Assembly (NCBI GenBank): GCA_945865625.1
Contig: CAMBFD010000001.1
Span: 34,559-98,558 of the forward strand
Length of the DNA: 64,000 nt
Direction of reading: 5' to 3'
From: Chitinophaga pinensis
GTDB lineage: Bacteria; Bacteroidota; Bacteroidia; NS11-12g; UBA955
Shown: positions 2,665 through 56,575 of the stretch, one piece after another
Layout: each line of letters starts with the position of its first letter
Position numbering within the stretch: position 1 is the stretch's first letter
Program-made: the position numbers and the translations under genes
The notes under the pieces: generated by a model
Database searches by the model: none
Seen by the model: only the letters and a program-made list of their open reading frames with translations
Told to the model about the DNA's origin: nothing

Positions 2665-4248
2665 TTATTTAGATATGAATTCTATACATTGAACGTTTGA
2701 ATTGATGATTTTTTTTAATTTATCTGCTGATAATGGGTTCTTCATAGCAATATGAGATAACTGAAAGAATTTACACAAATCGGCAAATTGATATGATTGG
2801 GGTGTTTCTATGAATGGTATCAATTTTGGTTCCCCTGAAGGACCATTGATCCAACTGAAAATTTGTCCACCACCATTATTGATAACAATGATTTTTAAAT
2901 TTTGAGGGAAGTGATTCGTCCACATGGCGTTAGAGTCATATAAAAATGAAATGTCGCCCAAAATGCAAATATTCTGTTTGTCAGGATTTGCAAGTGCAAA
3001 ACCCACAGCAGTGCTTAAACTTCCATCGATGCCACTGGTGCCTCGGTTGCAATAAATTTCCGACTTCGATTGTCCCACCCAAGAAGCATAGCGAATACTC
3101 ATAGAATTTCCGAAATGCAATACTGGAGAATCTTCATCCAAATCCATGATGGTTTTTACCAATAGATACTCAGATAAATAGTTGCTTGATAATTTTGATG
3201 TATTGGCGAGATATCCAAGATTTCCCCATAGGGTTAGGTAATCAGTATTTTCTGCACTATGCAGGTACAATGCTGTTAAAAAATCGGCATCGTGGTGATA
3301 AAGAATGGTAGGATTTGTTTGAAACGGATCTCCTACAGTTCCAGATTCACAAACATGAATGTGTTTGGGTTTATATTTTCTTAAAATTGTTTTTAATGGT
3401 TTACTGATGGTGGCCATTCCAATAGTGACAAGAATTTCAGGAACTAAATTCTCGGGAAAATCATTTGAACTGAGGGCTAAATCCCAATTTTGAATTCCAA
3501 ATTCAATTTGATGACTGCAAATATCTGTGAGAACTGGAATTTTATGTTGCAATAAAGACAGTGCTTCCGATAGTGATTGTGAAGGATGATGTTGCCCAAC
3601 AAGAACCAATATTTTGGAGGTTGTTTGGGGTATGGTTTCAAGAATAATTTCTGGAGTTACAGGTTTTTGGGTATTGTGTTTGAATATAAATGGTTGGCTC
3701 GGTTCAATGGAATGAAATGGATCAGATAATCCTTGATAAATTGGATCTTCAAGAGAAATATTGATATGAGTTGGTCCCGTCTTTGGAAAAAGTGAGGTTT
3801 CAACGGCCGCATAAATGGTTTTTTCGAGGGATATTTGATCGATTGAATGTCCCTCAATTTGAAAAAAATCTAAACAATGCGGTTGAAATAGGTTTTGTTG
3901 ATGAATGGTTTGCCCGTCCCATTGGTCGATTAAATTAGCTGGTCGATCTGCAGTAAGAACAATAAGGGGAGTTCTTTGGTAGAAGGCTTCGCAAACGGCT
4001 GGGTATAAATTAATTGCAGCTGTGCCAGAAGTGCAAATAACACCGGCTGGATATTGATTTTCTAGCGACATTCCTAGGGCAGCAAAAGCAGCAGCACGTT
4101 CATCAGGAAAACTATGTAAGGTAAATTGTCCATGTCGCAAGAAACTCGCCACAATGGGTGCATTTCTAGAGCCAGGACTAACGGCCCATTGGGTAATTCC
4201 AGCTTCGTAAAAAAGGGTTGCAATGAAGTCTAAATTTTCTCGAAGCAT
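2665..4248 (-). CDS. menD: 2-succinyl-5-enolpyruvyl-6-hydroxy-3-cyclohexene-1-carboxylate synthase (MenD, ThDP-dependent)
   Basis: 527 aa. N-terminus FYEAGITQWAVSPGSRNAPIV. ThDP-binding GDISFLYDSN...NNGGGQIF motif. Confidence 0.85.
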   Translation of the reverse strand: MLRENLDFIATLFYEAGITQWAVSPGSRNAPIVASFLRHGQFTLHSFPDERAAAFAALGMSLENQYPAGVICTSGTAAINLYPAVCEAFYQRTPLIVLTADRPANLIDQWDGQTIHQQNLFQPHCLDFFQIEGHSIDQISLEKTIYAAVETSLFPKTGPTHINISLEDPIYQGLSDPFHSIEPSQPFIFKHNTQKPVTPEIILETIPQTTSKILVLVGQHHPSQSLSEALSLLQHKIPVLTDICSHQIEFGIQNWDLALSSNDFPENLVPEILVTIGMATISKPLKTILRKYKPKHIHVCESGTVGDPFQTNPTILYHHDADFLTALYLHSAENTDYLTLWGNLGYLANTSKLSSNYLSEYLLVKTIMDLDEDSPVLHFGNSMSIRYASWVGQSKSEIYCNRGTSGIDGSLSTAVGFALANPDKQNICILGDISFLYDSNAMWTNHFPQNLKIIVINNGGGQIFSWINGPSGEPKLIPFIETPQSYQFADLCKFFQLSHIAMKNPLSADKLKKIINSNVQCIEFISK

Positions 4249-24317: not shown

Positions 24318-24350
24318 GGGGCGAAAAGGTAGTTTTTTTTCGCCCTTCTT
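24318..24350 (+). terminator. Rho-independent terminator after the TPR gene
   Basis: GGGCGAAAA-GGTAG-TTTTTTTTCGCCC hairpin followed by TTCTT. Confidence 0.6.
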
Positions 24351-24360
24351 ATTTATTCTG

Positions 24361-24625
24361 GATTATCTGTTTATTGGTACTCGGAGTTCACTAAACCTCA
24401 TAAAACTATTTAATGTTTAGCGTTTAGCGTTTAATGTTTAGCGTTTAATGTTTAGCGTTTAATGTTTAGCGTTTAATGTAATTTACCTGTTTACTGGTAC
24501 TTGGAGTTCACTAAACCTCCTAAACCTATTTAAAGTTTAGCGTTTAATGTTTAATGTTTAAAGTAATACTGGTACTCGGAGTTCACTAAACCTCCTAAGA
24601 GTTTATAGTAATAATGCCAAAATAG
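24361..24625. repeat. Composite tandem-repeat array: three copies of a ~34-bp block interleaved with GTTTAGCGTTTAAT tandem units
   Basis: Blocks CTGTTTATTGGTACTCGGAGTTCACTAAACCTC at 24367-24400, 24486-24520 and 24571-24600. 14-bp tandem run at 24415-24478 (about 4.5 copies) and a shorter run at 24535-24560. TATAAACC dyad at ~24630-24648. Confidence 0.75.
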
Positions 24626-24648
24626 AACCTTTATAAACCCTTATAAAC

Positions 24649-24685
24649 AAAAAAAAAGGTGCAAATTTCTTTGCACCTTTTTTTG
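24649..24685. terminator. Bidirectional Rho-independent terminator (serves the minus-strand gene 24698-25603)
   Basis: AAAAAAAAA-GGTGCAAA-TTTC-TTTGCACC-TTTTTTT. Confidence 0.6.
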
Positions 24686-47658: not shown

Positions 47659-48687
47659 TTACAACAATTTTCCAGAGCCACCGCCCATGTGCGGAATTTT
47701 ACCCAAATGCCTATATGCCAAATGTGTGGCTTCTCTACCTCGAGCTGTACGCTGTAAATATCCCTCCTGAATTAAGAATGGTTCATAAACCTCTTCTATG
47801 GTTCCTGAATCCTCACCAACAGCAGTGGCAATGGTTCCAAGTCCTACAGGACCACCCTTGAACTTTTCGATAATGGTTAACAAAATTCGATTATCCATTT
47901 CATCCAATCCATTGGCATCAACATTTAATGCTTGCAGTGCAAATTGCGCAATGTCTAAATTGATGGTACCATCGCCTTTGATTTGAGCAAAATCTCTGGT
48001 TCTACGCAAAAGTGCGTTTGCAATTCTTGGGGTTCCACGACTTCTACGGGCAATTTCAAAAGCAGCGCTTTCTTCAATTGGGGTGTTTAAAATACTTGAA
48101 CTACGTTTGACAATTCCTGTTAAGATTTCGGCATTGTAATATTCTAACCTACAATTGATACCGAAACGGGCTCTTAAAGGCGCCGTCAATAAACCGCTTC
48201 TAGTGGTTGCTCCAACCAATGTGAATGGTGCCAATGAAATTTGCACACTGCGGGCATTGGGGCCTGTATCGATCATAATGTCAATACGATAGTCTTCCAT
48301 TGCACTATACAAATATTCTTCAATTACAGGGCTCAAACGGTGAATTTCATCAATAAACAAAACATCACCTTTTTGAAGGTTGGTTAACAAACCTGCCAAA
48401 TCACCCGGCTTTTCAAGTACGGGTCCGCTGGTGATTTTCATTGAGCTGCCCATGGCATTGGCAACAATATGACTTAAAGTGGTTTTTCCAAGACCCGGAG
48501 GGCCATGGAGTAAAATATGGTCTAACGCTTCTTCTCTCAAACGAGCTGCTTCTACGAAAACTTTTAGGTTATCTAAGATTTTTTCTTGCCCGGTAAAATC
48601 GTCGAAGGTTGCTGGCCTCAATACCTTTTCAATGTCCTTGTCGGCACGGCTTAATTGATCGTTGGCAGGATTGAGGTTTGGATTCAT
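47659..48687 (-). CDS. ruvB: Holliday junction branch-migration helicase RuvB
   Basis: 342 aa. Walker [11 protein letters not shown] and AAA+ sensor motifs. Confidence 0.95.
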
Positions 48688-48690
48688 GAG

Positions 48691-49563
48691 TTATAGTGTA
48701 TTTGCTAAACGACGTAAATTTGCTTCAACAGTTGCGTTTACAGGCCAAAGTGGTTGACGTACAGCTGTTCCACAAAGTCCTTTCTCGTTCAACATGGTTT
48801 TAATTCCTGAGGGACTACCATCGGCGAAAATTGCAATGGCAGATTCCATGGTTTGGTAGTGAAGTGATTTTGCGTCGGCAAAACGTCCCTCCAAACAAGC
48901 CTTTACCATACCCGAAAATTGCATTGGGAAAGCATGGTTAATCACAGAGATTACGCCAGCCGCTCCACAAGCCATCATGGGCAAAGTGAGAGAGTCATCG
49001 CCGCTGATAACAAGGAAATCTGCAGGTTTATGAGCAATGATTTGCATCACTTGCTCGATGTTTCCTGATGCTTCTTTTGTAGCAACAATTTGTGGCAAGG
49101 CAGCCAAACGCAATTGCGTTTCGGCAGTCATGTTCATTCCAGTTCTTCCCGGAACATTGTAAATAATGATTGGCAATGGGGTTACTGCGCACAACGATTT
49201 GTAATGCTGGTAAATTCCTTCTTGATTTGGTTTGTTGTAATAAGGACTCACCGATAAAATGGCGCAAAAGCCTGAAACATCGGTGGTTTTCAAAAGATGA
49301 CAAACTTCGGCAGTGTTGTTGCCTCCGATGCCCAGAATTAATGGCAATCGACCATGATTTGCTGCTTTAATGCAATTGATTATCGCAGTTTTTTCATCAG
49401 ACGATAACGTAGCACTTTCACCTGTTGTTCCTAAAACAACCAAGTAGTTTGTGCCACCATCAATTTGTTGGTTTACAATGCGTGCAAGTGCATCGAAATC
49501 AATGCTATGATCTTCTTTAAATGGGGTAATTAATGCCACCCCTGTGCCCATTAGTTCTTTCAT
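48691..49563 (-). CDS. dapA: 4-hydroxy-tetrahydrodipicolinate synthase
   Basis: 290 aa. Motif GTTGESATLS and Schiff-base lysine region. Confidence 0.9.
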   Translation of the reverse strand: MKELMGTGVALITPFKEDHSIDFDALARIVNQQIDGGTNYLVVLGTTGESATLSSDEKTAIINCIKAANHGRLPLILGIGGNNTAEVCHLLKTTDVSGFCAILSVSPYYNKPNQEGIYQHYKSLCAVTPLPIIIYNVPGRTGMNMTAETQLRLAALPQIVATKEASGNIEQVMQIIAHKPADFLVISGDDSLTLPMMACGAAGVISVINHAFPMQFSGMVKACLEGRFADAKSLHYQTMESAIAIFADGSPSGIKTMLNEKGLCGTAVRQPLWPVNATVEANLRRLANTL

Positions 49564-50108
49564 TGTAAATGTTTAAAGCAATCTTTTAAATCGCAAATGT
49601 ACTGATTCAAATTCGGTGTTTCATTTTGTTTTAGCAAGATATCAAAAAAAGCTGGATAATTTTCCTGCCACAGAGATACCCTTGCAATGCTGTTCGACAT
49701 GCTCGCCATTACAATTGTTTTGTAAGAGAATGACATGTCTAGGTTTATGAAAAAATCAGAAGGTTGTTTGAGTATCATCTGAAGTCCATCGGCCTTTGGG
49801 AATCCATACCAGTTGAAGTCTGCTTGGCAAAAATTCCAACGATTTCTATCGGCAGGAACAGGAATGTTCTTCGTGTCTTTTCCCGGGTAAATGATAATTT
49901 TACTGACAATTTTTCCGTTTTGTTTTAAGTAATCGGCAAAATCCTCGATGAGCGCAATTTGTTGGTCATTATTCTCTAAAACTTCATACGCAATGATAAA
50001 GTTTTTAGCATATCTAAAATTAATGGCACCCTTGTTTCTCTTAAAAGATTTGGCCTTTAAGTTCAGCAATGCCATTTTGAGTTTGCTTGGTTGAAATTCT
50101 TCGTTCAT
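49560..50108 (-). CDS. Hypothetical protein (conserved position between ligA and dapA)
   Basis: 182 aa. No recognizable motif. 4-nt overlaps on both sides. Confidence 0.4.
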   Translation of the reverse strand: MNEEFQPSKLKMALLNLKAKSFKRNKGAINFRYAKNFIIAYEVLENNDQQIALIEDFADYLKQNGKIVSKIIIYPGKDTKNIPVPADRNRWNFCQADFNWYGFPKADGLQMILKQPSDFFINLDMSFSYKTIVMASMSNSIARVSLWQENYPAFFDILLKQNETPNLNQYICDLKDCFKHLQ

Positions 50109-52111
50109 GATGTTTGAATCATTTGTAAGAGTTCATCTTCCGATAGGAAAACAACACCCAATTGTTGTGCTTTTTCTAATTTTGAGGGACCAACACCGCT
50201 GCCTGCAATGAGGTAATTGGTTTTTGAGGTCACGCCACTTGCCATTTTTCCTCCGTTGTTTTCAACCAAGTCTTTGAGTTCGTCGCGACTATGATTTTCG
50301 AAAACCCCAGAAATCACAAAGATTTTACCTTCCAAAACATAGCTTGCTTTTTCAATTTTCTGAGCTTCGAATTGCAAATTTGCGGATTTTAATCTCTCAA
50401 TTTCTTGCAAATTACGAGGATTTTGGAAATGTTGGTGCACCGTTTGTGCAATTCGCTCTCCAATTTCATCAACCTTGAGCATTTCTTCGATGCTGGCATT
50501 CATTAAATTGTGAATGGTTAAAAATGCCGCAACCAATTTTTTGGCCACGGTTTCTCCAACATATCTTATACCAATGGCAAATAAAACCCTTTCAAAAGGT
50601 TGGTTTTTACTGATTTGTATGCCTTCAATGATGTTGTTGGCACTTTTTTCGCCCATTCGGTCTAACGCAATTAACTGTTCAAAAGTTAAGTCGTAAAAGT
50701 CGGCCGGCGAGTTTACCAAGTTGTTTTTGTAGAGCGTTTCTGCCATTTCACTGCCAATACTCTGAATGTCCATGGCCTTGCGCCCTACAAAATGTTCGAG
50801 TTTCCCAACCACTTGAGGAGGGCAGAGGAGGTCGTTGGGACAATAATGCTGGGCTTCACCTTCATTTCGAATGAGTTTGGTGTTGCATTCTGGGCAATGT
50901 GAAATATAGGCTTGAGGTTCAGAGTTTTCAGGTCTTTGGGTATAGTCGATTCCCACAATTTTAGGAATGATTTCACCCCCTTTTTCTACAAAAACCATGT
51001 CGCCGATGCGAATGTCTAAACGTTCCATTTCATTGGCATTGTGTAAGCTCGCCCGCTTCACCGTGGTTCCAAGAATGGCAACAGGTTGTAGTTCGGCTAC
51101 TGGCGTAATGGCACCCGTTCTTCCAACTTGGTACTTAATATCGAGCAGTGTTGTGGTGGCCGTTTCCGTTTGAAATTTATAAGCAATGGCCCAACGTGGG
51201 GTTTTTGCGGTGAACCCAAGTTCTTCTTGGAGGTTTTTGTTGTTTACTTTTATCACCACTCCATCGGTGTCGAACGACAAATCGTGCCGTTTTGCATCCC
51301 AAACGTTTAAAAACGCGAGTACACTGTCAATGCCATTGCAAACTTTTGAGGTTTCAGCAATTTTAATTCCCCAGCTTGCTGCTGCATTGAGCGACTCAGA
51401 ATGGGTGGCAAAAAGTCCCTCATCCTCTAATAAATAATATAAATAAATGTCGAGCGGACGTTTGGCAACCTCATTGGGGTCTTTGATTTTGAGGGATCCC
51501 GAAGCCACGTTTCTTGGGTTGGCGTATTCGGCTTCATTGTTGGCCCTTCTCATGTCATTGAGCTTTTCGAAACCTTTGCGATGCATGAAAATTTCACCAC
51601 GCATTTCGAATTTCTGAGGGAAATTTCCTGAGAGTTGGTGTTTTAGGCTTCGAATGGTTTTTACGTTGGTGGTTACATCGTCGCCTTGAATGCCATCGCC
51701 ACGGGTAATGGCTTGCACGAGTTTTCCATTTTCAAAAAATAAAGAAATGGCCAACCCGTCAATTTTAAGTTCGCATACATATTCAATGTCTGCGAGTCCT
51801 GTCGATTTACGAATGCGTTCATCGAAATCTCTCAGCTCTTGCTCGTTGTAAGTATTTGCCAGCGACAACATTGGCCGTTGGTGTTTCACGGTGATAAATC
51901 CATCGGAAACGTTTCCACCTACTTTTTGGGTAGGACTATCCGGTGAAATAAATTGTGGAAATTGAGCTTCGAGATGGGTCAATTCGTTGAGTAATTGATC
52001 GAATTCAAAGTCAGAAATTGCAGGTTCAGCAAGCACATAATACCGGTAATTATGGTCTTTGAGGAGCGTAGTTAGTTGTTCAATGCGGAGTTTTGCATTT
52101 GCCAATTCCAT
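50105..52111 (-). CDS. ligA: NAD-dependent DNA ligase
   Basis: 668 aa. Adenylation KxDG motif (CELKIDGLAIS), Zn-finger Cys cluster, HhH and C-terminal BRCT. Confidence 0.95.
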   Translation of the reverse strand: MELANAKLRIEQLTTLLKDHNYRYYVLAEPAISDFEFDQLLNELTHLEAQFPQFISPDSPTQKVGGNVSDGFITVKHQRPMLSLANTYNEQELRDFDERIRKSTGLADIEYVCELKIDGLAISLFFENGKLVQAITRGDGIQGDDVTTNVKTIRSLKHQLSGNFPQKFEMRGEIFMHRKGFEKLNDMRRANNEAEYANPRNVASGSLKIKDPNEVAKRPLDIYLYYLLEDEGLFATHSESLNAAASWGIKIAETSKVCNGIDSVLAFLNVWDAKRHDLSFDTDGVVIKVNNKNLQEELGFTAKTPRWAIAYKFQTETATTTLLDIKYQVGRTGAITPVAELQPVAILGTTVKRASLHNANEMERLDIRIGDMVFVEKGGEIIPKIVGIDYTQRPENSEPQAYISHCPECNTKLIRNEGEAQHYCPNDLLCPPQVVGKLEHFVGRKAMDIQSIGSEMAETLYKNNLVNSPADFYDLTFEQLIALDRMGEKSANNIIEGIQISKNQPFERVLFAIGIRYVGETVAKKLVAAFLTIHNLMNASIEEMLKVDEIGERIAQTVHQHFQNPRNLQEIERLKSANLQFEAQKIEKASYVLEGKIFVISGVFENHSRDELKDLVENNGGKMASGVTSKTNYLIAGSGVGPSKLEKAQQLGVVFLSEDELLQMIQTS

Positions 52112-52245
52112 AGGTCAACGAAACTACAAAAAAATCTTTGGGAGAGTCGATTTTTGATTACTCAAAATGGTTTGAGTTATACACAATTCATGTCATTTAT
52201 TAAACAATTGATAATTTATTAACAGATAAATATGTTTTTTGAATC

Positions 52246-52752
52246 ATGGAATCTCAAAAAATCGCCCCAAACAGAGTGGTTAGTTTAAGCTATTCTCTGT
52301 CGTTAACAAACGGACAAATTGCAGACGAAGCTACTGCTGAACAACCACTAGTGTTTATTCACGGTGTTGGTCAAACCTTACCTGAATTCGATGCGCGCAT
52401 AGAAGGACTGAGTGTAGGAGAAGGATTTTCTTTCACTTTAACTGCTGAACAAGGATATGGAGAATCTGACGAACGTTGGATTATCGAATTGCAAAAATCA
52501 ATTTTTGAAGGACCGGATGTGCCTGCAGACATTTTGCAAATAGGAGCACTTTTACCAATGCAAGACCAAGATGGCAATCCAATGGATGGCAAATTAGTTG
52601 AAATTGGCGACGAAACTGTGAAGTTAGACTTCAACCACCCGTTGGCTGGCGAAGCTTTACATTTCACTGGTAAAGTTGAATCTGTAAGAGAAGCAACTTC
52701 CGACGAATTGGACCATGGCCACGTTCATGGTGAAGGCGGGCATCAACATTAA
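52246..52752 (+). CDS. slyD: FKBP-type peptidyl-prolyl cis-trans isomerase, SlyD-like, with His-rich C-terminus
   Basis: 168 aa. FKBP fold with inserted IF-like flap. C-terminal HGHVHGEGGHQH metal-binding tail. Confidence 0.75.
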   Translation: MESQKIAPNRVVSLSYSLSLTNGQIADEATAEQPLVFIHGVGQTLPEFDARIEGLSVGEGFSFTLTAEQGYGESDERWIIELQKSIFEGPDVPADILQIGALLPMQDQDGNPMDGKLVEIGDETVKLDFNHPLAGEALHFTGKVESVREATSDELDHGHVHGEGGHQH

Positions 52753-52865
52753 GCCATAAACGATTAAACGGTTAAACGGTTAGGAGGATTAGAAGGATTA
52801 AACGGTTAGAAGGATTAGAAGCAATCTAATAATCCTATAATCTTATAATCCTATAATCTGTCCAA
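52753..52865. repeat. Composite intergenic short-tandem-repeat element (TAAACGxTTAAACGG units, GGATTAGAAG/GGTTAGAAG units, TATAATCC units)
   Basis: AAACGATTAAACGGTTAAACGG; then GGTTAGGAGGATTAGAAGGATTAAACGGTTAGAAGGATTAGAAG; then CCTATAATCTTATAATCCTATAATC. Lies between convergent slyD and the dnaE-family gene. Confidence 0.65.
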
Positions 52866-55800
52866 TTAAATTCTTGGATCTAATTGGATTCCCAACTTTT
52901 CCATCTGAGTCACCTCAATGTTAAATACCCCGAAGTCTGCGGTGATTTGTCCCCAAATGCGATAAACACCGCGGCCTTTGAAAGGGTAGCGCGATACAAT
53001 CTGTGGGAAGTGAATGCTATCAAAGAAATATCCATCGCGGTCTACCCATGTTCCAAAGTTCATTTCCTTGCCCCCAATTGTCTTTGTGGGCTTTACCGTG
53101 ACCAAATATCCCTCAAGCATCACCGATTTGTGAAGCAGTTTGCCCAAATCTCTCGCCCTTAACTTGGATCCTTCATCGGGCTCACTGGTTAGGGTAAACG
53201 GACTGCAAAGTGGAAACCCCAAGAATTCCCTTTGATCTATGGCAATTTCTAACCACGAGTCTTCTAATGGCGGTAATTCGTATGTTTTCGGTTGTTCTGT
53301 GAACAATTTTGCGGAAATTATTTCCTGTTTTTTTTGCGAATAATACGAATGTGCCTCCCATAAAAGTGCCCGTCTCGACTTTTCTGTGTATCTGAATGCC
53401 CCAATTTGGATTAAGATTTTTAACTGCTCTAAGCCAGGTTCTACCCGTGTTTTGAAATCATATAAACTTTCAAATGCACCTTCTTTTTGCGCCGCGAAAA
53501 TTCTTTCTGCACACCTTTGCTCTAGTCCTTGTATGAGTCCCAACCCCAGCCAAATCGTTTTCCCCTCAATTTTTGTGAGAAATTTGCTGTGGTTTGCACA
53601 AGGTGCTTGCACGTCGGCGCCGCACATTCGGGCAGCGTGAACATAAAATTCGGTGCGGTAAAAACCTCCGAAATTGTTAATCACCGCCACGTAAAATTCG
53701 AGCGGATAATAGGCTTTCAAATGCAAACTCTGGTAACTCTCCACCGCGTAACTCGCACTATGTCCCTTCGCAAAACTATATCCTGCAAAACTTTCAATTT
53801 GCTTCCACACTTCAACAATGAGTTGGTGTGAATGTCCCTTCTCCCTGGCTTTTTCATAAAATTGTTGCTGAACTTTCAGAAATTCTGCCTTGCTCCTAAA
53901 TTTCCCGCTCATGCCACGTCTTAAAACATCGCTTTCAGCAAGTCCTAAGCCCGCAAAATGATGGGCCACGCGAATCACATCTTCCTGATACACCATGATT
54001 CCATACGTTTCGGGCATAATTTCTTGTAAAATTGGGTGGGCTTCCGTGCGCTTCCTTACATCGATATGCCTTTCAATGAATGTTCGCATCATGCCACTTC
54101 TGGCAACCCCCGGACGTATCACACTGCTGGCCGCCACCAACGTGAGGTAGTCTCGGCATTTGAGTTTTCGCAACAATTGTCGCATGGCAGGACTTTCTAC
54201 ATAAAAGCAGCCCATGGTAAATCCAGTTTCAATAATTCTGGCAATTTTTGGGTCGTTTTTAAACGTTTGAATTTGGTGTGGATCTACATCAATGCCTTGA
54301 TTTTCTTTGATATAGATTACGGCATCTTTGATGTGCCCAAGTCCTCGTTGACTTAAAATATCGAACTTTGCAAGTCCTAAATCTTCAGCTTCAAGCATGC
54401 TAAATTGCACGGTGGGGAATCCTTTTGGAGGCATTTCCAACGCCGAATAATGGTAGATGCTTTTTTCGGAAATGAGAATTCCCCCCACATGAATGCTCCG
54501 ATAATTTGGCAGATTGTGAATTTTTCGGGCATGTTTTAACAAAGTTGCATACAGCGACTCTTTGCTTTCGAGAGTATTTTCTGAATTTGCAGCGGTTTTG
54601 GGCTTCCATTCTCTATTTCTAAGTCCAATTCCCGGAGTGCTATAGATAGAATCGCTGTTGGTTGAAAATTCCTCAAAGTTGGCATCTCCATAATAGGTTG
54701 GCCGTTCGAGTAAATTGTCGATTTCGGCCTTTGGTAAGCCATACACTTTGCCGAGTTCTCTCACCACGGCATTGCTCTGAAAGGTGTTGTAAGTGCCAAC
54801 CAATGCAGCATGGTGCGGGCCGTATTTCTCCATGATGTAAGCGGTAACCTGATCGCGGTCTTGCCATGAAAAATCGAGGTCGAAGTCGGGCGGACTACTT
54901 CTGTAAGGATTGATAAACCGTTCGAAATACAAATCGAGGTCAATGGGGTCAACATCGGTAATTTTCAGGCAATAGGCCACCATGCTATTGGCGCCGCTCC
55001 CTCGTCCTACATGAAAAAATCTTTGCTCTTCGGCAAATCGGCAAATGTCCCAGTTGATTAAAAAATAAGATGTAAATCCCAGTTCATAAATGAGTTGCAT
55101 TTCTTTTTCTAGGCGCTTCGTGGTTTCGTAGGTGTAATTTGGATAGCGGTATTTAAGTCCCTCAAAAGCCAACTCCCTTAACATTCTATAGTCTTGGTCG
55201 ACATTTTGTGTAAACGTTTTTTTATTCTGAGGGACATTGAAGTCGAAGCTCCAATGTGGTTGATTGACAATCGATTGTGCGTTTTGTAATAGTATGGGAG
55301 TGTCTAAAAACTCATTGACAATGCTGGCAATGTCTTCAAATAGATCGTATTTAGAGGCGGTGCAATTGGGTTTAAGTTTTGTGAGGAGGCAATTGTGTTG
55401 GATGCAACGCAAGAGGGTGTGGGTGTGGAGGTCGTCGATATTTCTGAGGGTGGCTTTGTGGTATGCAATGAGTCGCTTTGCCGAATTTTTCCACGGCGAC
55501 AATCTGAGTTTCCTCAATTGTTGTTTTGTGATGCCAATGAGGGCATGTGAAGGGATGTCTTTGTGCGAGAGTCCAATGACCTTATGGAAGGGGTAGATGC
55601 AGGTTACGTGTTCGAGTTTTGGCGCCAAAATGGGGAAGGGGAGGTTTTGCATCAAAAATTCTGATAAAAACTGGTTGATATTGGCAAATCCGGCATGCGA
55701 ATTTGCAATGAGAAGGTAGAGGGATTCGTCGTTATTTTTAATTTCCACGCCAACTAGCGGAACAACATTTGGATATTTTTTGGCTTCTTTTAGAAAGTTG

Positions 55801-55949
55801 GTGGCACCGCTGACATTGTTGATATCGGCTAGCAGGATATGCACGGTTTCATTGAGGGTATCAGCCTGGTTTTTTGCCCAAAGAACAATATCCTCGGGGC
55901 TAAGTAATCCGTACCGTAAGCTAAAGTAAGAGTGTGCATGAAAAACCAT
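52866..55949 (-). CDS. dnaE2: DNA polymerase III alpha-subunit family protein, short form (DnaE2/ImuC-like)
   Basis: 1027 aa. N-terminal PHP domain (MVFHAHSYFSLRYG), polymerase palm motif FHVGRGSGANSMVAYCLKITDVDP, C-terminal OB fold. Too short for a replicative DnaE, and no tau-binding C-terminal extension. Confidence 0.65.
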   Translation of the reverse strand: MVFHAHSYFSLRYGLLSPEDIVLWAKNQADTLNETVHILLADINNVSGATNFLKEAKKYPNVVPLVGVEIKNNDESLYLLIANSHAGFANINQFLSEFLMQNLPFPILAPKLEHVTCIYPFHKVIGLSHKDIPSHALIGITKQQLRKLRLSPWKNSAKRLIAYHKATLRNIDDLHTHTLLRCIQHNCLLTKLKPNCTASKYDLFEDIASIVNEFLDTPILLQNAQSIVNQPHWSFDFNVPQNKKTFTQNVDQDYRMLRELAFEGLKYRYPNYTYETTKRLEKEMQLIYELGFTSYFLINWDICRFAEEQRFFHVGRGSGANSMVAYCLKITDVDPIDLDLYFERFINPYRSSPPDFDLDFSWQDRDQVTAYIMEKYGPHHAALVGTYNTFQSNAVVRELGKVYGLPKAEIDNLLERPTYYGDANFEEFSTNSDSIYSTPGIGLRNREWKPKTAANSENTLESKESLYATLLKHARKIHNLPNYRSIHVGGILISEKSIYHYSALEMPPKGFPTVQFSMLEAEDLGLAKFDILSQRGLGHIKDAVIYIKENQGIDVDPHQIQTFKNDPKIARIIETGFTMGCFYVESPAMRQLLRKLKCRDYLTLVAASSVIRPGVARSGMMRTFIERHIDVRKRTEAHPILQEIMPETYGIMVYQEDVIRVAHHFAGLGLAESDVLRRGMSGKFRSKAEFLKVQQQFYEKAREKGHSHQLIVEVWKQIESFAGYSFAKGHSASYAVESYQSLHLKAYYPLEFYVAVINNFGGFYRTEFYVHAARMCGADVQAPCANHSKFLTKIEGKTIWLGLGLIQGLEQRCAERIFAAQKEGAFESLYDFKTRVEPGLEQLKILIQIGAFRYTEKSRRALLWEAHSYYSQKKQEIISAKLFTEQPKTYELPPLEDSWLEIAIDQREFLGFPLCSPFTLTSEPDEGSKLRARDLGKLLHKSVMLEGYLVTVKPTKTIGGKEMNFGTWVDRDGYFFDSIHFPQIVSRYPFKGRGVYRIWGQITADFGVFNIEVTQMEKLGIQLDPRI

Positions 55950-55984
55950 TTTGATAATATTATTGACAATTAATTGGCAACAAT

Positions 55985-56109
55985 ATACGCAAAAAATCCA
56001 AAATGGTTAGAAAGATTAGAAAGATTAGAAGATCAAAAATCCAATACGCCTATAAACTTATAAACCAATAAGCCAGTAGGCTGAAGTAATTAAGTATTAA
56101 ACATTAAAT
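55985..56109. repeat. Composite intergenic short-tandem-repeat element (GGTTAGAAAGATTAGAAAGATTAGAAG; TATAAACTTATAAACC; TAAACATTAAAT)
   Basis: Core at 56005-56066. Same three sub-motifs as 52753-52865. Lies between the divergent dnaE-family and DCC genes. Confidence 0.65.
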
Positions 56110-56112
56110 TTG
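56105..56112 (+). promoter_or_regulatory. Bacteroidota -7 promoter element TAAATTTG upstream of the DCC gene
   Basis: Matches TAnnTTTG 12 nt upstream of the ATG at 56125. Confidence 0.3.
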
Positions 56113-56124
56113 CTCAAGCATTGG

Positions 56125-56481
56125 ATGAAAAATAACATTGTGTTTTTTGATGGGGTGTGTAATCTCTGTAACGGTTGGGTTAAGTTTCTAAAGAAATATG
56201 ATCGGAAAAAGCGATTTGAAATGCACTCTCTTCAATCGCAAATGGCCACTAGTTTGATACCCCCACAATATCTTTCCGCACAACCAGAGTCTATCATTTA
56301 TCTCCGAAATGGTAAAATCTTCACAAAATCCCTCGCAGTTTGCTTTATTTTTAAAGATCTTCCCTTGCCATTTTCTCTACTCTATGCCTTAAGAATCATC
56401 CCTCCATTCATCAGAGATTCTGTGTATAAATGGGTTGCAAAAAATAGGTATCGGTGGTTTGGGAAATGCGATATTCTTTGA
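56125..56481 (+). CDS. DCC-family thiol-disulfide oxidoreductase (DUF393)
   Basis: ATG at 56125 (MKNNIVFFDGVCNLCNGWVKFL); the ORF-track start at 56110 is a TTG. CxxC motif in the characteristic FDGxCxLC context. Confidence 0.7.
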   Translation: MKNNIVFFDGVCNLCNGWVKFLKKYDRKKRFEMHSLQSQMATSLIPPQYLSAQPESIIYLRNGKIFTKSLAVCFIFKDLPLPFSLLYALRIIPPFIRDSVYKWVAKNRYRWFGKCDIL

Positions 56482-56575
56482 GAAATTTAATGCTTAAAGT
56501 TTAGTGCTTAATGTTGGTTCAAAGTTTAATATAAACCGTCCACTAATCCCTCTAACCATTCTAACCCCCTAATCC
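56482..56575. repeat. Composite intergenic short-tandem-repeat element in inverted orientation (AATGCTTAAAGTTTAGTGCTTAATG; TATAAACC; CTAATCC/CTAACC units)
   Basis: The reverse complement GGATTAGGGGGTTAGAATGGTTAGAGGGATTAG matches the GGTTAGAAG/GGATTAGAAG arrays at 52781-52824 and 56005-56031. Overlaps the stop codon of the efflux adaptor gene. Confidence 0.65.

What the first reader, a model, noticed from the sequence alone, without database searches (positions are those of the whole stretch)
52866..55949. Stand-alone short-form DNA polymerase III alpha (DnaE2/ImuC-like) without imuA/imuB neighbours, flanked by repeat arrays
The 1027-aa protein has PHP, polymerase core and OB-fold regions but is far shorter than replicative DnaE. 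This is the usual signature of error-prone DnaE2/ImuC. ImuC normally sits in a LexA-controlled imuA'-imuB-imuC cassette. Here the upstream neighbour is a divergent DCC oxidoreductase gene and the downstream neighbour is slyD. No Y-family polymerase or S24 peptidase gene is adjacent. Its putative promoter region is made up of the TTAGAAAGATTAGAAAGATTAGAAG array, which could be an operator array.
Basis: partly seen in the sequence, partly recalled or inferred. Interest (0 to 1): 0.6.

Follow-up and report, generated by a model that had tools for sequence, protein, structure and literature searches.

The report
Stand-alone DnaE2B error-prone polymerase gene
An uncultured freshwater Bacteroidota chromosome carries an intact, short second DNA polymerase III alpha-like gene of the already described DnaE2B (putative error-prone) type, here separated from the Y-family polymerase gene that usually sits beside it, so it is an ordinary member of a known family with a modest twist.

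Summary
The 1027-aa ORF at 52866-55949 (-) is real. It is not a replicative DnaE1 and not a canonical ImuC/DnaE2A. It belongs to the Bacteroidota DnaE2B group defined in NAR 2026 (PMC12926913). Its N-terminal 400 aa are 41-43% identical, end to end, to published DnaE2B references, and it falls in a monophyletic family (bootstrap 100). About 50 of 80 sampled genomes in that family have a 'Bacteroid-PolY2' Y-family polymerase gene beside or near the polymerase gene. The window gene lies in a well-supported sub-clade of uncultured Bacteroidota in which no member has a PolY nearby. Synteny there is OEP-MFP...dnaE2B...slyD-ligA-dapA-ruvB. The catalytic Asp triad and the clamp-motif LF are invariant, and dN/dS is 0.05-0.10. 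The TTAGAAAGA array is not an operator: it lies in hypervariable junction DNA and is absent from a 96%-identical strain. What is conserved is a 48-bp promoter block with a dyad (TTGCCAA-TTAA-TTGTCAA). The clade also has a specific ~45-aa thumb insertion with a conserved YSxPGIG motif. Whether the genome encodes DnaE1 and PolY2 elsewhere could not be tested.

The parts
52866..55949 (-). dnaE2B: 1027-aa C-family DNA polymerase of the Bacteroidota DnaE2B group
   Evidence: ORF. Pfam and NCBIfam: only the superfamily model TIGR00594 passes its cut-off. 41-43% identity over the whole N-terminal 400 aa to the published DnaE2B references ADV50501 and AKQ45466. Placement in the tree. dN/dS 0.05-0.10.
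55200..55949 (-). Reduced, degenerate PHP domain (aa 1-~250). The HxH is kept (H4, H6) but the Asp ligand is Y13 and a His ligand is I43
   Evidence: Weak Pfam PHP hit. Alignment to Thermus DnaE1. This region is about 30 aa shorter than in E. coli. It matches the 'reduced PHP' reported for Bacteroidetes DnaE2 (PMC3919608).
53835..55184 (-). Polymerase core (palm, thumb, fingers; aa 256-705) with catalytic D355, D357 and D530
   Evidence: Pfam PF07733 and PF17657. The residues equivalent to E. coli D401, D403 and D555 are invariant in 85 of 85 family members, as are R344, K528, R677/R678, Y724 and H730.
54558..54701 (-). Clade-specific thumb insertion (aa ~417-464), predicted disordered, with the conserved motif (V/I)Y(S/A)xPG(I/V)G..RNRxLG
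   Evidence: 65-93 residues lie between conserved anchors in the window clade, against 25-30 in all other Bacteroidota members. pLDDT is below 50. The motif is conserved in 55 distinct clade sequences.
53364..53621 (-). (HhH)2 / beta-binding domain (aa 777-862)
   Evidence: Pfam HHH_6, 2.3e-17.
53301..53315 (-). Clamp-binding-type motif SAKLF (aa 879-883) in a disordered linker
   Evidence: It aligns with E. coli 920-QADMF-924. L882 and F883 are invariant in 85 of 85 family members. Low pLDDT over aa 873-893. The Gln of the QxxLF consensus is absent.
52896..53126 (-). C-terminal OB fold (aa 942-1018); the protein ends just after it
   Evidence: Beta-rich domain in the AF2 model. Foldseek local hits to SSB, RPA and AspRS OB folds. 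The last residue aligns to about E. coli position 1093.
55950..55997 (-). Conserved promoter/leader block directly upstream of the ATG
   Evidence: The DNA homology with strain L007 (95.6%) begins exactly here. The block aligns across relatives down to 68-70% protein identity, while everything further upstream cannot be aligned.
55963..55980 (-). Dyad TTGCCAA-TTAA-TTGTCAA (read on the coding strand): candidate operator, or part of the core promoter
   Evidence: It is the only zero-mismatch match in the window. It keeps the same position (-29 to -46) in the window clade and Schleiferia, and a related dyad lies upstream of a PolY2-dnaE2B operon in L075.
55981..55987 (-). TATATTG box, resembling the Bacteroidota -7 element TAnnTTTG
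   Evidence: Conserved as TAT(A/T)TTG in all aligned relatives. The assignment as a -7 box is inference from the published consensus, not a test.
56007..56030 (.). TTAGAAAGA x2.7 array in the divergent spacer. It is hypervariable and is not part of the conserved promoter
   Evidence: TRF. Absent or different in L007, L001, L008 and L013.
52757..52859 (.). Short-period arrays (TTAAACGG/TTAGAAGGA, then TATAATCC) forming a long imperfect hairpin between the convergent slyD and dnaE2B ends. Probably a bidirectional terminator
   Evidence: TRF. RNA fold: + strand -30 kcal/mol, z -4.4, 0 of 200 shuffles fold as well; - strand -24 kcal/mol, z -1.9.
56486..56564 (.). Third short-period array (TTTAATGC..., CTAATCCCTCTAACC...) after the DCC gene
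   Evidence: TRF. TTAG-N5 pattern on the minus strand. No significant fold.
56110..56481 (+). DCC1-like thiol-disulfide oxidoreductase gene. A strain-variable insert, not a conserved neighbour
   Evidence: PF04134, 1e-28. Absent upstream of the gene in L007, L001, L005 and L006.
52246..52752 (+). slyD-like FKBP peptidyl-prolyl isomerase gene. It is the first gene of the conserved slyD-ligA-DUF6913-dapA-ruvB block
   Evidence: Pfam and NCBIfam. Synteny in L001, L005 and L006.

Best explanation
The gene encodes a DnaE2B-type C-family DNA polymerase. This is the Bacteroidota branch of the non-essential, proofreading-deficient 'DnaE2' polymerases. It is a catalytically competent polymerase with an intact Asp triad. 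It probably rides on the beta sliding clamp through the xxxLF motif, binds DNA through its HhH and OB domains, cannot proofread because its PHP metal ligands are lost, and cannot join the replisome because it has no tau-binding tail. In most Bacteroidota the gene is co-transcribed with an active Y-family polymerase (Bacteroid-PolY2), often with an SRAP peptidase, under the SOS-type GGA-N5-TCC operator. It is predicted to act with PolY2 and RecA as a translesion or mutagenic complex. In the lineage of this window the polymerase gene has been separated from PolY2. It sits alone between an efflux operon and the slyD-ligA-dapA-ruvB block and is transcribed from its own conserved 48-bp promoter block. 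The dyad in that block is the most likely site of repressor control. Shown here: family membership, domain and residue content, loss of gene linkage across a whole clade, purifying selection, and promoter-block conservation. Inferred: damage-tolerance function (no Bacteroidota DnaE2B has been tested experimentally), continued cooperation with a PolY and RecA encoded elsewhere, repressor binding to the dyad, and the existence of a separate long DnaE1 in the genome.
For: Family: the N-terminal 400 aa align colinearly with Cellulophaga and Rufibacter DnaE2B at 43% and 41% identity (E 1e-111 and 1e-103). Against Mtb DnaE2A and a Bacteroidetes DnaE1 there are only short weak matches. In NJ trees the 85 Bacteroidota sequences are monophyletic (100/100). 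They group with imuA-imuB-linked DnaE2A rather than with E. coli, Streptomyces or Bacteroidota DnaE1 (100/100; topology). NCBIfam: 506 bits against a cut-off of 1002 for the DnaE1 equivalog, and 422 against 939 for the DnaE2 subfamily. Usual partner: in the flanks of 80 genome loci, 36 have a PolY2 ortholog (53-77% identical to ADV50500) directly adjacent and 14 more have one 0.5-5.5 kb upstream. An annotated example is Emticicia dinB-dnaE. Six of those 14 spaced loci have an SRAP-like gene between the two. Unlinked clade: the window, L007, L001, L008, L013, L006, L009, L010, L005 and L011 form a clade (100/100) with no PolY within 8-10 kb and with conserved synteny. Function retained: catalytic and DNA-binding residues and the LF motif are invariant. 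dN/dS is 0.05-0.10. The full-length fold matches DnaE structures (TM 0.77 to 7pu7) and includes an OB fold. Promoter. Literature: PMC12926913 (DnaE2B occurs in genomes lacking imuA/imuB and is linked to PolY and RecA; some have no partner found), PMC3919608 (reduced PHP and thumb in Bacteroidetes DnaE2), PMC8565304 (dinB-PolIIIalpha operons under GGA-N5-TCC). The genome table of PMC12926913 shows Algoriphagus, Cyclobacterium and Croceimicrobium with one ~1430-aa DnaE1, one DnaE2B and two PolYs.
Against: Raw identity to E. coli DnaE1 (27%) is slightly higher than to DnaE2A (23-24%), and the DnaE1 HMM scores higher than the DnaE2 HMM. The DnaE2 grouping in a distance tree could therefore owe something to long-branch attraction. 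It rests partly on the published classification. No PolY2, RecA or SOS repressor was found in the window. Neither known Bacteroidetes SOS operator is in the promoter. An operator-based metagenome scan found no further regulon members. The clamp motif lacks the consensus Gln. The presence of DnaE1 and PolY2 elsewhere in this genome was not shown (one search was uninformative).
Confidence: 0.72

Rival explanations
1. A partner-independent DnaE2B subfamily. In this clade the polymerase no longer works with a Y-family polymerase. The clade-specific thumb insertion with its conserved YSxPGIG..RNRxLG motif supplies a new contact with DNA, the clamp, RecA or another protein. The gene has become a stand-alone repair or gap-filling polymerase, embedded next to ligA and ruvB, with its own regulation.
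For: No PolY lies within the flanks of any of 10 clade loci, nor in 52 + 8 kb of the window. The insertion is restricted to this clade and its motif is conserved in 55 sequences. The clade has its own conserved promoter block without the GGA-N5-TCC operator typical of PolY2-dnaE2B operons. PMC12926913 reports that a few DnaE2Bs have no identifiable partner.
Against: Loss of adjacency is not loss of the partner. In Algoriphagus pacificus PolY2 lies 7.5 kb away. Genera from other unlinked lineages carry two PolYs per genome. The Schleiferia group is also unlinked but lacks the insertion. The insertion is predicted to be disordered and nothing links it to a function.
Confidence: 0.17
2. It is a canonical ImuC (DnaE2A) whose imuA and imuB genes have simply moved elsewhere in the genome. 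This is.
For: Short DnaE with a degenerate PHP and no tau-binding tail. It groups with DnaE2A relative to DnaE1.
Against: It sits inside the Bacteroidota family (bootstrap 100), separate from the imuA-imuB-linked Rhizobium and Cupriavidus DnaE2A, at only 23-24% identity. It scores less than half the NF004225 cut-off. In this family the linked Y-family gene is an active-type PolY2, not ImuB, and no locus of the 80 has an ImuA or ImuB hit. The literature places DnaE2B in genomes without imuA/imuB.
Confidence: 0.03
3. It is the housekeeping replicative polymerase (a minimal DnaE1) of a streamlined freshwater bacterium.
For: It lies among housekeeping genes (ligA, ruvB, dapA; gyrB in Schleiferia). 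It is under strong purifying selection. The best-scoring NCBIfam model is a DnaE1 equivalog. No other dnaE lies in the 64-kb window.
Against: Its score is half the DnaE1 cut-off. There is no tau-binding domain, no intact PHP and no fused DnaQ, whereas the Bacteroidetes DnaE1 listed in PMC12926913 run from 1185 aa (intact PHP ligands) to about 1430-1560 aa (N-terminal DnaQ fused). It belongs to a family whose members co-occur with a DnaE1 in the complete genomes listed for Algoriphagus, Cyclobacterium, Croceimicrobium and Owenweeksia. Partial Bacteroidota DnaE1 sequences fall outside the family in the tree.
Confidence: 0.03
4. It is a decaying or functionless relic left behind after loss of the PolY2 partner.
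For: The usual partner gene is missing from the neighbourhood. The PHP domain is degenerate.
Against: The ORF is intact in all clade members. dN/dS is 0.05-0.10. All catalytic residues are invariant. The promoter block is conserved.
Confidence: 0.02

Closest known systems
Bacteroidetes DnaE2B of the predicted PolY-DnaE2B-RecA module (e.g. Cellulophaga algicola ADV50501 with PolY ADV50500; Rufibacter radiotolerans AKQ45466 with AKQ45465; PMC12926913)
   Same: Same protein family: colinear from residue 1, 41-49% identity, reduced PHP, very short thumb region apart from the insertion, intact DDD triad, xxxLF motif, OB fold at the C-terminus, about 980-1030 aa. Occurs in Bacteroidota. No imuA/imuB.
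   Different: No PolY2 gene, and no SRAP gene, beside it or anywhere in 64 kb. No GGA-N5-TCC operator; it has its own promoter block with a CAA-N4-TTG dyad instead. A ~45-aa clade-specific insertion in the thumb. A conserved housekeeping neighbourhood.
ImuA-ImuB-DnaE2 (ImuC, DnaE2A) mutasome of Proteobacteria and Actinobacteria (M. tuberculosis, P. aeruginosa, Rhizobium, Cupriavidus)
   Same: A non-essential, proofreading-deficient DnaE paralogue without the tau-binding domain. Sister position in the tree. Expected role in damage-induced mutagenesis.
   Different: Only 23-24% identity. It fails the NCBIfam error-prone-polymerase model. It has no ImuA or ImuB partners. The family's usual partner is a catalytically active PolY rather than the inactive ImuB.
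Replicative DnaE1 (E. coli, Thermus, M. tuberculosis; Bacteroidetes DnaE1 with fused DnaQ)
   Same: Overall fold (Foldseek TM 0.74-0.77), catalytic residues, HhH and OB domains, and the position of the clamp motif.
   Different: More than 100 aa shorter than the listed DnaE1s. No tau-binding C-terminal domain. Degenerate PHP and no DnaQ domain. It scores half the equivalog cut-off.
Other PolY-unlinked Bacteroidota DnaE2B (Schleiferia thermophila, Thermaurantimonas, Lacihabitans, Algoriphagus, Cyclobacterium, Draconibacterium)
   Same: A stand-alone dnaE2B in a chromosomal context. Schleiferia has a similar TATATTG box plus CAA-N4-TTG dyad upstream.
   Different: These are independent losses of linkage in separate branches of the tree. 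They lack the thumb insertion and have different neighbours (gyrB-fmt-HU in Schleiferia).

Membership tests
C-family DNA polymerase (Pol III alpha superfamily) | PHP - palm/thumb/fingers - (HhH)2 architecture detectable by profile | tested here: met
   Pfam PF02811, PF07733, PF17657 and PF14579. TIGR00594 scores 484 bits against a cut-off of 434. Foldseek TM 0.74-0.77 to DnaE structures.
C-family DNA polymerase (Pol III alpha superfamily) | Catalytic Asp triad (E. coli D401, D403, D555) | tested here: met
   D355, D357 and D530, invariant in 85 of 85 family members.
DnaE1 (replicative alpha subunit) | Passes a DnaE1 equivalog model | tested here: not met
   NF004226 scores 506 bits against a cut-off of 1002. 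All other DnaE1 equivalogs are also far below their cut-offs.
DnaE1 (replicative alpha subunit) | C-terminal tau-binding domain after the OB fold | tested here: not met
   The protein ends at about E. coli position 1093 of 1160, directly after the OB fold.
DnaE1 (replicative alpha subunit) | A proofreader: intact PHP metal site or a fused or bound DnaQ | tested here: not met
   PHP ligands are replaced (Asp to Y13, His to I43). There is no RNase_T/DnaQ domain. A separate epsilon subunit cannot be excluded.
DnaE1 (replicative alpha subunit) | It is the only DnaE-type polymerase of the genome, or is accompanied only by DnaE2 | not testable with these tools
   Only 64 kb of the genome is available. 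The search with a Schleiferiaceae DnaE1 fragment returned fragments that could not be tied to clade genomes.
DnaE2A / ImuC (ImuA-ImuB-DnaE2 mutasome) | Encoded with, or co-occurring with, imuA and imuB | tested here: not met
   No ImuA or ImuB tblastn hit in the window or in any of 86 related loci. Genome-wide absence was not tested.
DnaE2A / ImuC (ImuA-ImuB-DnaE2 mutasome) | Passes the error-prone polymerase model and clusters with DnaE2A | tested here: not met
   NF004225 scores 422 bits against a cut-off of 939. It forms a separate clade, sister to Rhizobium and Cupriavidus DnaE2A, at 23-24% identity.
DnaE2B, Bacteroidetes subgroup (PMC12926913) | Clusters with published Bacteroidetes DnaE2B sequences | tested here: met
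   43% and 41% identity over the whole N-terminal 400 aa to ADV50501 and AKQ45466. Monophyletic with PolY2-linked genes, bootstrap 100. Only the first 400 aa of the references were available.
DnaE2B, Bacteroidetes subgroup (PMC12926913) | Shortened core with reduced PHP and thumb (PMC3919608) | tested here: met
   The PHP region is about 255 aa against 285 in E. coli. The family's thumb segment is 25-30 aa against 46 in E. coli. In the window clade this segment is secondarily enlarged by an insertion.
DnaE2B, Bacteroidetes subgroup (PMC12926913) | Associated with an active Y-family polymerase (Bacteroid-PolY2) by co-localisation | tested here: not met
   No PolY in the window or in the flanks of the 10 clade loci. 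By contrast 36 of the 80 sampled loci have one adjacent and 14 more have one within 5.5 kb.
DnaE2B, Bacteroidetes subgroup (PMC12926913) | Associated with PolY2 and RecA by co-occurrence in the genome | not testable with these tools
   The rest of the genome cannot be reached. Genera of other unlinked lineages have two PolYs per genome.
Bacteroidetes SOS regulon (non-canonical LexA; PMC8565304) | A GGA-N5-TCC or CTAA-N5-TTAG operator in the promoter | tested here: not met
   Neither motif lies in 55950-56109. PolY2-dnaE2B operons of Flavobacteriaceae do carry tandem GGA-N5-TCC sites. A diverged dyad (CAA-N4-TTG) is present, but its binding protein is unknown.

The most novel reading that the evidence does not exclude
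The window clade is a distinct, partner-independent DnaE2B subfamily. After losing its PolY2 partner it acquired a disordered thumb insertion carrying a conserved YSxPGIG..RNRxLG motif as a new interaction or DNA-contact element. It also acquired its own operator (the CAA-N4-TTG dyad), bound by a repressor that has not been described. This would make it the first C-family translesion-type polymerase in Bacteroidota that works without any Y-family subunit.
Probability: 0.15. Interest if true: 0.55.

Novelty: new member of a known kind. Interest (0 to 1): 0.27.

Why it matters
The main value is correct annotation. Pipelines label this family inconsistently as 'DNA polymerase III subunit alpha', 'PolC' or 'error-prone DNA polymerase'. 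A reader could take it either for the replicase or for an orphan ImuC. Placing it in DnaE2B removes the apparent anomaly of missing imuA/imuB. The remaining points are modest but testable. Gene linkage between DnaE2B and PolY2 has been broken repeatedly in Bacteroidota. One uncultured, largely freshwater clade combines that loss with a conserved private promoter dyad and a thumb insertion. If that clade really works without PolY, it would bear on how C-family mutasomes are assembled and regulated. No Bacteroidota DnaE2B has yet been studied experimentally.

Tried and rejected
(1) Looked up the exact protein in public assemblies: not on record.
(2) Searched with the N-terminal 400 aa of Croceimicrobium DnaE1, to show a long DnaE1 in Schleiferia, Thermaurantimonas or on contigs that also carry clade DnaE2B genes. 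Only fragments under 700 aa came back, none named for those genera and none with a matching contig length, so the result is uninformative.
(3) Ran an operator-based regulon search in metagenome contigs with TTGNCAAWTAATTGNCAA. Only two hits were dnaE2B promoters of further clade relatives (L107, L192), and no other hit was near PolY2, RecA, SRAP or an S24 repressor. In the window itself, 1-mismatch copies of the dyad are at chance level.
(4) Tested the TTAGAAAGA array as an operator and rejected it.
(6) Looked for the PolY-subgroup columns in the per-genome table of PMC12926913: the stored rows end at the first Y-group column (PolY-core), so no PolY2 column was available. No statement specific to partner-less Bacteroidetes DnaE2B was found in the supplements.
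(7) The first bootstrap run produced invalid distances for very divergent pairs. It was repeated with a proper cap.
(8) Folded the third array (56478-56572) and the 24400-24660 repeat region: no structure above shuffles.
(9) I ran no further search on PolY2. Only the best 120 of several thousand family members are listed, and without a PolY2 sequence from the clade the chance of tying a hit to a clade genome was judged too low.

Full report
OBSERVATION. The ORF at 52866-55949 on the minus strand exists as described, with an ATG start and 1027 aa. Pfam finds a weak PHP domain (28.8 bits, aa 3-101), the Pol III alpha NTPase/palm domain (aa 256-532, 1.4e-66), the finger domain (538-705) and HHH_6 (777-862). 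No Pfam OB model matches. The AlphaFold2 model built on 14 homologues (mean pLDDT 79, pTM 0.69) nevertheless ends in a five-strand beta domain at aa 942-1018. Foldseek matches that domain to SSB, RPA and AspRS OB folds, while the whole chain matches DnaE structures (M. tuberculosis 7pu7 TM 0.77, Thermus 3e0d TM 0.74). The last residue aligns to about position 1093 of the 1160-aa E. coli DnaE, so the tau-binding C-terminal domain is missing. The neighbours are as stated: a divergent DCC1-like oxidoreductase gene (56110-56481, PF04134 1e-28) and a convergent SlyD-like FKBP gene (52246-52752). tblastn with reference PolY2, ImuB, ImuA, RecA, SRAP and a CI/S24 repressor finds nothing in the 64-kb window. 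The other large genes are ordinary chromosomal genes: PriA, a RecQ-type helicase, RuvB, LigA, DapA, BipA, RF3, a histidine kinase and a TPR protein. The repeat arrays are also real.

WHAT THE PROTEIN IS. NCBIfam places it only at superfamily level: TIGR00594 scores 484 bits against a cut-off of 434. The best DnaE1 equivalog reaches 506 of the 1002 bits required, and the error-prone (DnaE2) subfamily model 422 of 939. It is therefore neither a standard DnaE1 nor a standard ImuC. Homologues of 975-1090 aa are abundant in Bacteroidota, and sources name them inconsistently as 'DNA polymerase III subunit alpha', 'PolC' or 'error-prone DNA polymerase'. Two papers resolve this. Timinskas et al. (PMC3919608) noted that Bacteroidetes DnaE2s have a distinctly shorter core with reduced PHP and thumb. 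[quoted passage not shown] Its supplement gives reference sequences, stored only as the first 400 aa. The window protein aligns with Cellulophaga algicola DnaE2B (ADV50501) and Rufibacter radiotolerans DnaE2B (AKQ45466) from residue 1 to 400 at 43% and 41% identity (E 1e-111 and 1e-103). Against M. tuberculosis DnaE2A and a Bacteroidetes DnaE1 there are only short weak matches.

PHYLOGENY AND GENE CONTEXT. A scan of species-representative genomes returned 80 loci. One of them is a 99%-identical protein from the Lake Erken MAG 'uncultured Bacteroidetes bacterium ErkenSummer_bin-0977'. The window therefore comes from an uncultured freshwater Bacteroidota. An ortholog of the reference 'Bacteroid-PolY2' (53-77% identity) lies on the same strand directly before or after the polymerase gene in 36 loci. 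In 14 more it lies 0.5-5.5 kb upstream. In six of those 14 loci the intervening gene is about 240-280 aa, and in five it starts MCGRY, the hallmark of an SOS-response-associated peptidase. An annotated example of the standard arrangement is the Emticicia oligotrophica plasmid pEMTOL01. There dinB and 'dnaE' overlap by one base and are preceded by a divergent HTH/S24 repressor gene and an SRAP gene. A neighbour-joining tree of 84 family members and outgroups makes the Bacteroidota family monophyletic. It groups with the imuA-imuB-linked DnaE2A of Rhizobium and Cupriavidus rather than with the outgroup DnaE1s. Three partial Bacteroidota DnaE1 were added for the bootstrap runs on a 58-sequence subset, and both groupings have 100/100 support. 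One caveat applies. Raw identity is 27% to E. coli DnaE1 and 23-24% to DnaE2A, so the DnaE2 grouping in a distance tree might be helped by long branches. The assignment also leans on the published classification.

THE STAND-ALONE STATE. The window gene lies in a clade (window, L007, L001, L008, L013, L006, L009, L010, L005, L011; bootstrap 100) in which no member has a PolY gene within the 8-10 kb flanks. The window itself adds 52 kb on one side. Relatives at 80%, 63% and 59% protein identity share the order OEP - MFP - (variable genes) - dnaE2B - (variable genes) - slyD - ligA - DUF6913 - dapA - ruvB. Linkage has also been lost independently in Schleiferia/Thermaurantimonas (next to gyrB-fmt-HU), Lacihabitans/Leadbetterella, Draconibacterium and Algoriphagus/Cyclobacterium. 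Loss of adjacency does not mean loss of the partner. In Algoriphagus pacificus the PolY2 gene lies 7.5 kb upstream. The survey's genome table lists Algoriphagus sanaruensis, Cyclobacterium marinum and Croceimicrobium hydrocarbonivorans each with one ~1430-aa DnaE1 (N-terminal DnaQ fused), one DnaE2B and two Y-family polymerases. For the window's own genome neither DnaE1 nor PolY2 could be looked for, and the one attempt to do so indirectly failed.

FUNCTIONAL STATE OF THE PROTEIN. The residues equivalent to E. coli D401, D403 and D555 are D355, D357 and D530. They are invariant in all 85 family members, as are R344, K528, R677/R678, Y724 and H730. At the position of the E. coli clamp-binding motif 920-QADMF-924 the window has SAKLF. 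L882 and F883 are invariant in the family, and the segment is disordered in the model, as clamp motifs usually are. The Gln of the QxxLF consensus is absent. In the PHP domain the HxH is kept, but the Asp ligand is Tyr13 and a His ligand is Ile43, so PHP proofreading is unlikely. No DnaQ domain is present. dN/dS against three relatives is 0.05-0.10. This is an active, selectively maintained polymerase and not a relic. No DnaE2 of any kind appears among solved structures.

A CLADE-SPECIFIC INSERTION. Between two invariant anchors (D411 and H478 in window numbering), PolY-linked members and the Schleiferia group have 25-30 residues and E. coli has 46. The window clade has 65-93. The insertion (aa ~417-464 here) has pLDDT below 50. 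It nevertheless contains a motif conserved in 55 distinct clade sequences, (V/I)Y(S/A)xPG(I/V)G followed by RNRxLG, and then a Ser/Thr/Asn-rich linker of 0-90 residues. Its function is unknown. It is the one protein feature that coincides with this particular unlinked clade.

PROMOTER AND THE 'OPERATOR ARRAY'. The TTAGAAAGA x2.7 array (56007-56030) is not conserved. Upstream regions of relatives can be aligned only over the last ~48 bp before the ATG. The strain L007 is 95.6% identical in DNA from exactly 48 bp upstream of the ATG to 37 bp past the stop (window 52828-55997) and unrelated outside these limits. It has no DCC gene, and it has different short-period arrays on both sides. The array type TTAG-N5-TTAG-N5-TTAG is over-represented, at 3 copies against 0.24 expected. 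The copies bracket both dnaE2B and the DCC gene, and two of them lie in gene-end spacers. The array between slyD and dnaE2B folds into a long imperfect hairpin (-30 kcal/mol, z -4.4) and probably acts as a bidirectional terminator. The third array does not fold. [quoted passage not shown] The array consists of direct repeats, and neither operator occurs in this promoter.

What is conserved is a block reading, on the coding strand, TTTTG-N2/3-TATATTG-TTGCCAA-TTAA-TTGTCAA-TAATATTATCAAA-ATG. The TAT(A/T)TTG box resembles the Bacteroidota -7 element. The dyad nCAA-N4-TTGn keeps its position in the window clade and in Schleiferia (TATCAAATAATTGATA). A near-identical dyad (GTGACAATTATTTGTCAC) precedes a PolY2-dnaE2B operon in a Cytophagales MAG. 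Flavobacteriaceae PolY2-dnaE2B operons instead carry tandem GGA-N5-TCC sites, and operons with the order dnaE2B-PolY2 carry CTACA...TGTAG dyads. This diversity fits the operator drift described for the non-canonical LexA proteins. Whether the window's dyad is an operator or just part of the core promoter cannot be decided by computation. It is unique in the window, and a metagenome-wide scan for it gave no regulon.

MECHANISM, WITH SHOWN AND INFERRED STEPS. Shown: family membership; domain and residue content; whole-clade loss of PolY linkage with conserved synteny; purifying selection; a conserved private promoter block. Inferred from the families involved: the protein is a clamp-dependent, proofreading-less polymerase used for lesion bypass or damage-induced mutagenesis. 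It most likely still cooperates with a PolY and RecA encoded elsewhere, as in the AlphaFold-supported but experimentally untested PolY-DnaE2B-RecA model of PMC12926913. It is most likely repressed through the dyad until DNA damage occurs. The main rival, at about 0.17, is that this clade has become independent of PolY, with the thumb insertion as the compensating element. The ImuC, housekeeping DnaE1 and pseudogene readings are each at or below 0.03.

NOVELTY AND VERDICT. The apparent anomaly, a DnaE2 without imuA/imuB, is explained by a group that is already described. The stand-alone state recurs in several Bacteroidota lineages, including cultured genera. I rate the finding a new member of a known kind. 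The clade-specific insertion, the promoter dyad and the hypervariable array-filled spacers are small new details worth a note rather than a discovery. Interest: 0.27.

Noticed in passing
window 52757-52859, 56007-56030, 56486-56564; L007:1-421 and 3588-3626; L001:9700-9960: The spacers on both sides of dnaE2B are hypervariable between close strains and are filled with lineage-specific short-period (7-9 bp) arrays: TTAGAAGGA/TATAATCC in the window, GAAAACC and TTTATTGG/CTTATGAG in L007, CTTTATAAACC in L001 and CTCTCAAC in L008. Different genes are inserted in them (DCC here; HTH_3/TM2/DUF2752, or PETase/methyltransferase, or ATPase/porin in relatives). The arrays look like junction DNA at insertion hot spots. 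Their origin is unexplained.
   Followed up: partly
window 24340-24650: Three copies of a 25-nt core, TGGTACTCGGAGTTCACTAAACCTC (24375, 24495, 24570; none expected by chance), are separated by heptamer arrays (GTTTAGC/GTTTAAT)n. They lie in the convergent spacer after the TPR gene and are followed by a clean terminator hairpin at about 24650-24685. There is no significant fold. The element is unidentified.
   Followed up: partly
window 54558-54701 (aa ~417-464 of the polymerase): A clade-specific disordered thumb insertion with the conserved motif (V/I)Y(S/A)xPG(I/V)G..RNRxLG and a Ser/Thr/Asn-rich linker of very variable length (up to about 90 aa in P0015, P0016 and P0018). Its function is unknown.
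   Followed up: partly
L025:7176-7985, L033:7117-7944, L052:7117-7953, L056:7175-7984, L076:7119-7961, L030:7124-7843: In several Flavobacteriales-type genomes a gene of ~240-280 aa, starting MCGRY in five of the six (SRAP/YedK-like peptidase signature), is inserted between PolY2 and dnaE2B, giving a three-gene PolY2-SRAP-DnaE2B operon.
   Followed up: partly
upstream regions of L026, L042, L044, L050, L051, L061, L071, L078 (dnaE2B-PolY2 gene order): Operons with the order dnaE2B then PolY2 (Winogradskyella, Algibacter, Yeosuana and others) carry conserved CTACA-N-TGTAG-type dyads (for example ACTACATATTGTAGC). They lack the GGA-N5-TCC operator seen in PolY2-first operons. This may be a further diverged SOS operator class.
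   Followed up: no
L088 (Emticicia oligotrophica plasmid pEMTOL01, NC_018742.1:43446-47611): A dinB-dnaE2B operon with a divergent HTH/S24 (GDSMLP) repressor gene and an SRAP gene is carried on a conjugative plasmid. The module is therefore mobile in Bacteroidota. The chromosomal stand-alone genes of Lacihabitans are its closest relatives in the tree.
   Followed up: partly
proteins P0138, P0157, P0167, P0197, P0207, P0228: N-terminal DnaQ+PHP pieces of Bacteroidota DnaE1, only 414-652 aa long, are called on very long contigs (0.3-4.8 Mb). They are therefore not cut by contig ends. They could be split gene calls, frameshifts or inteins in DnaE1, or an artefact of how the search picks candidates.
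   Followed up: no
window 47659-52752: The block slyD-ligA-DUF6913-dapA-ruvB is syntenic down to 59% DnaE2B identity, so the polymerase sits next to DNA ligase and RuvB. ruvB is a reported member of the Bacteroidetes CTAA-N5-TTAG SOS regulon (PMC8565304), but these are separate transcription units and no shared motif was found.
   Followed up: partly
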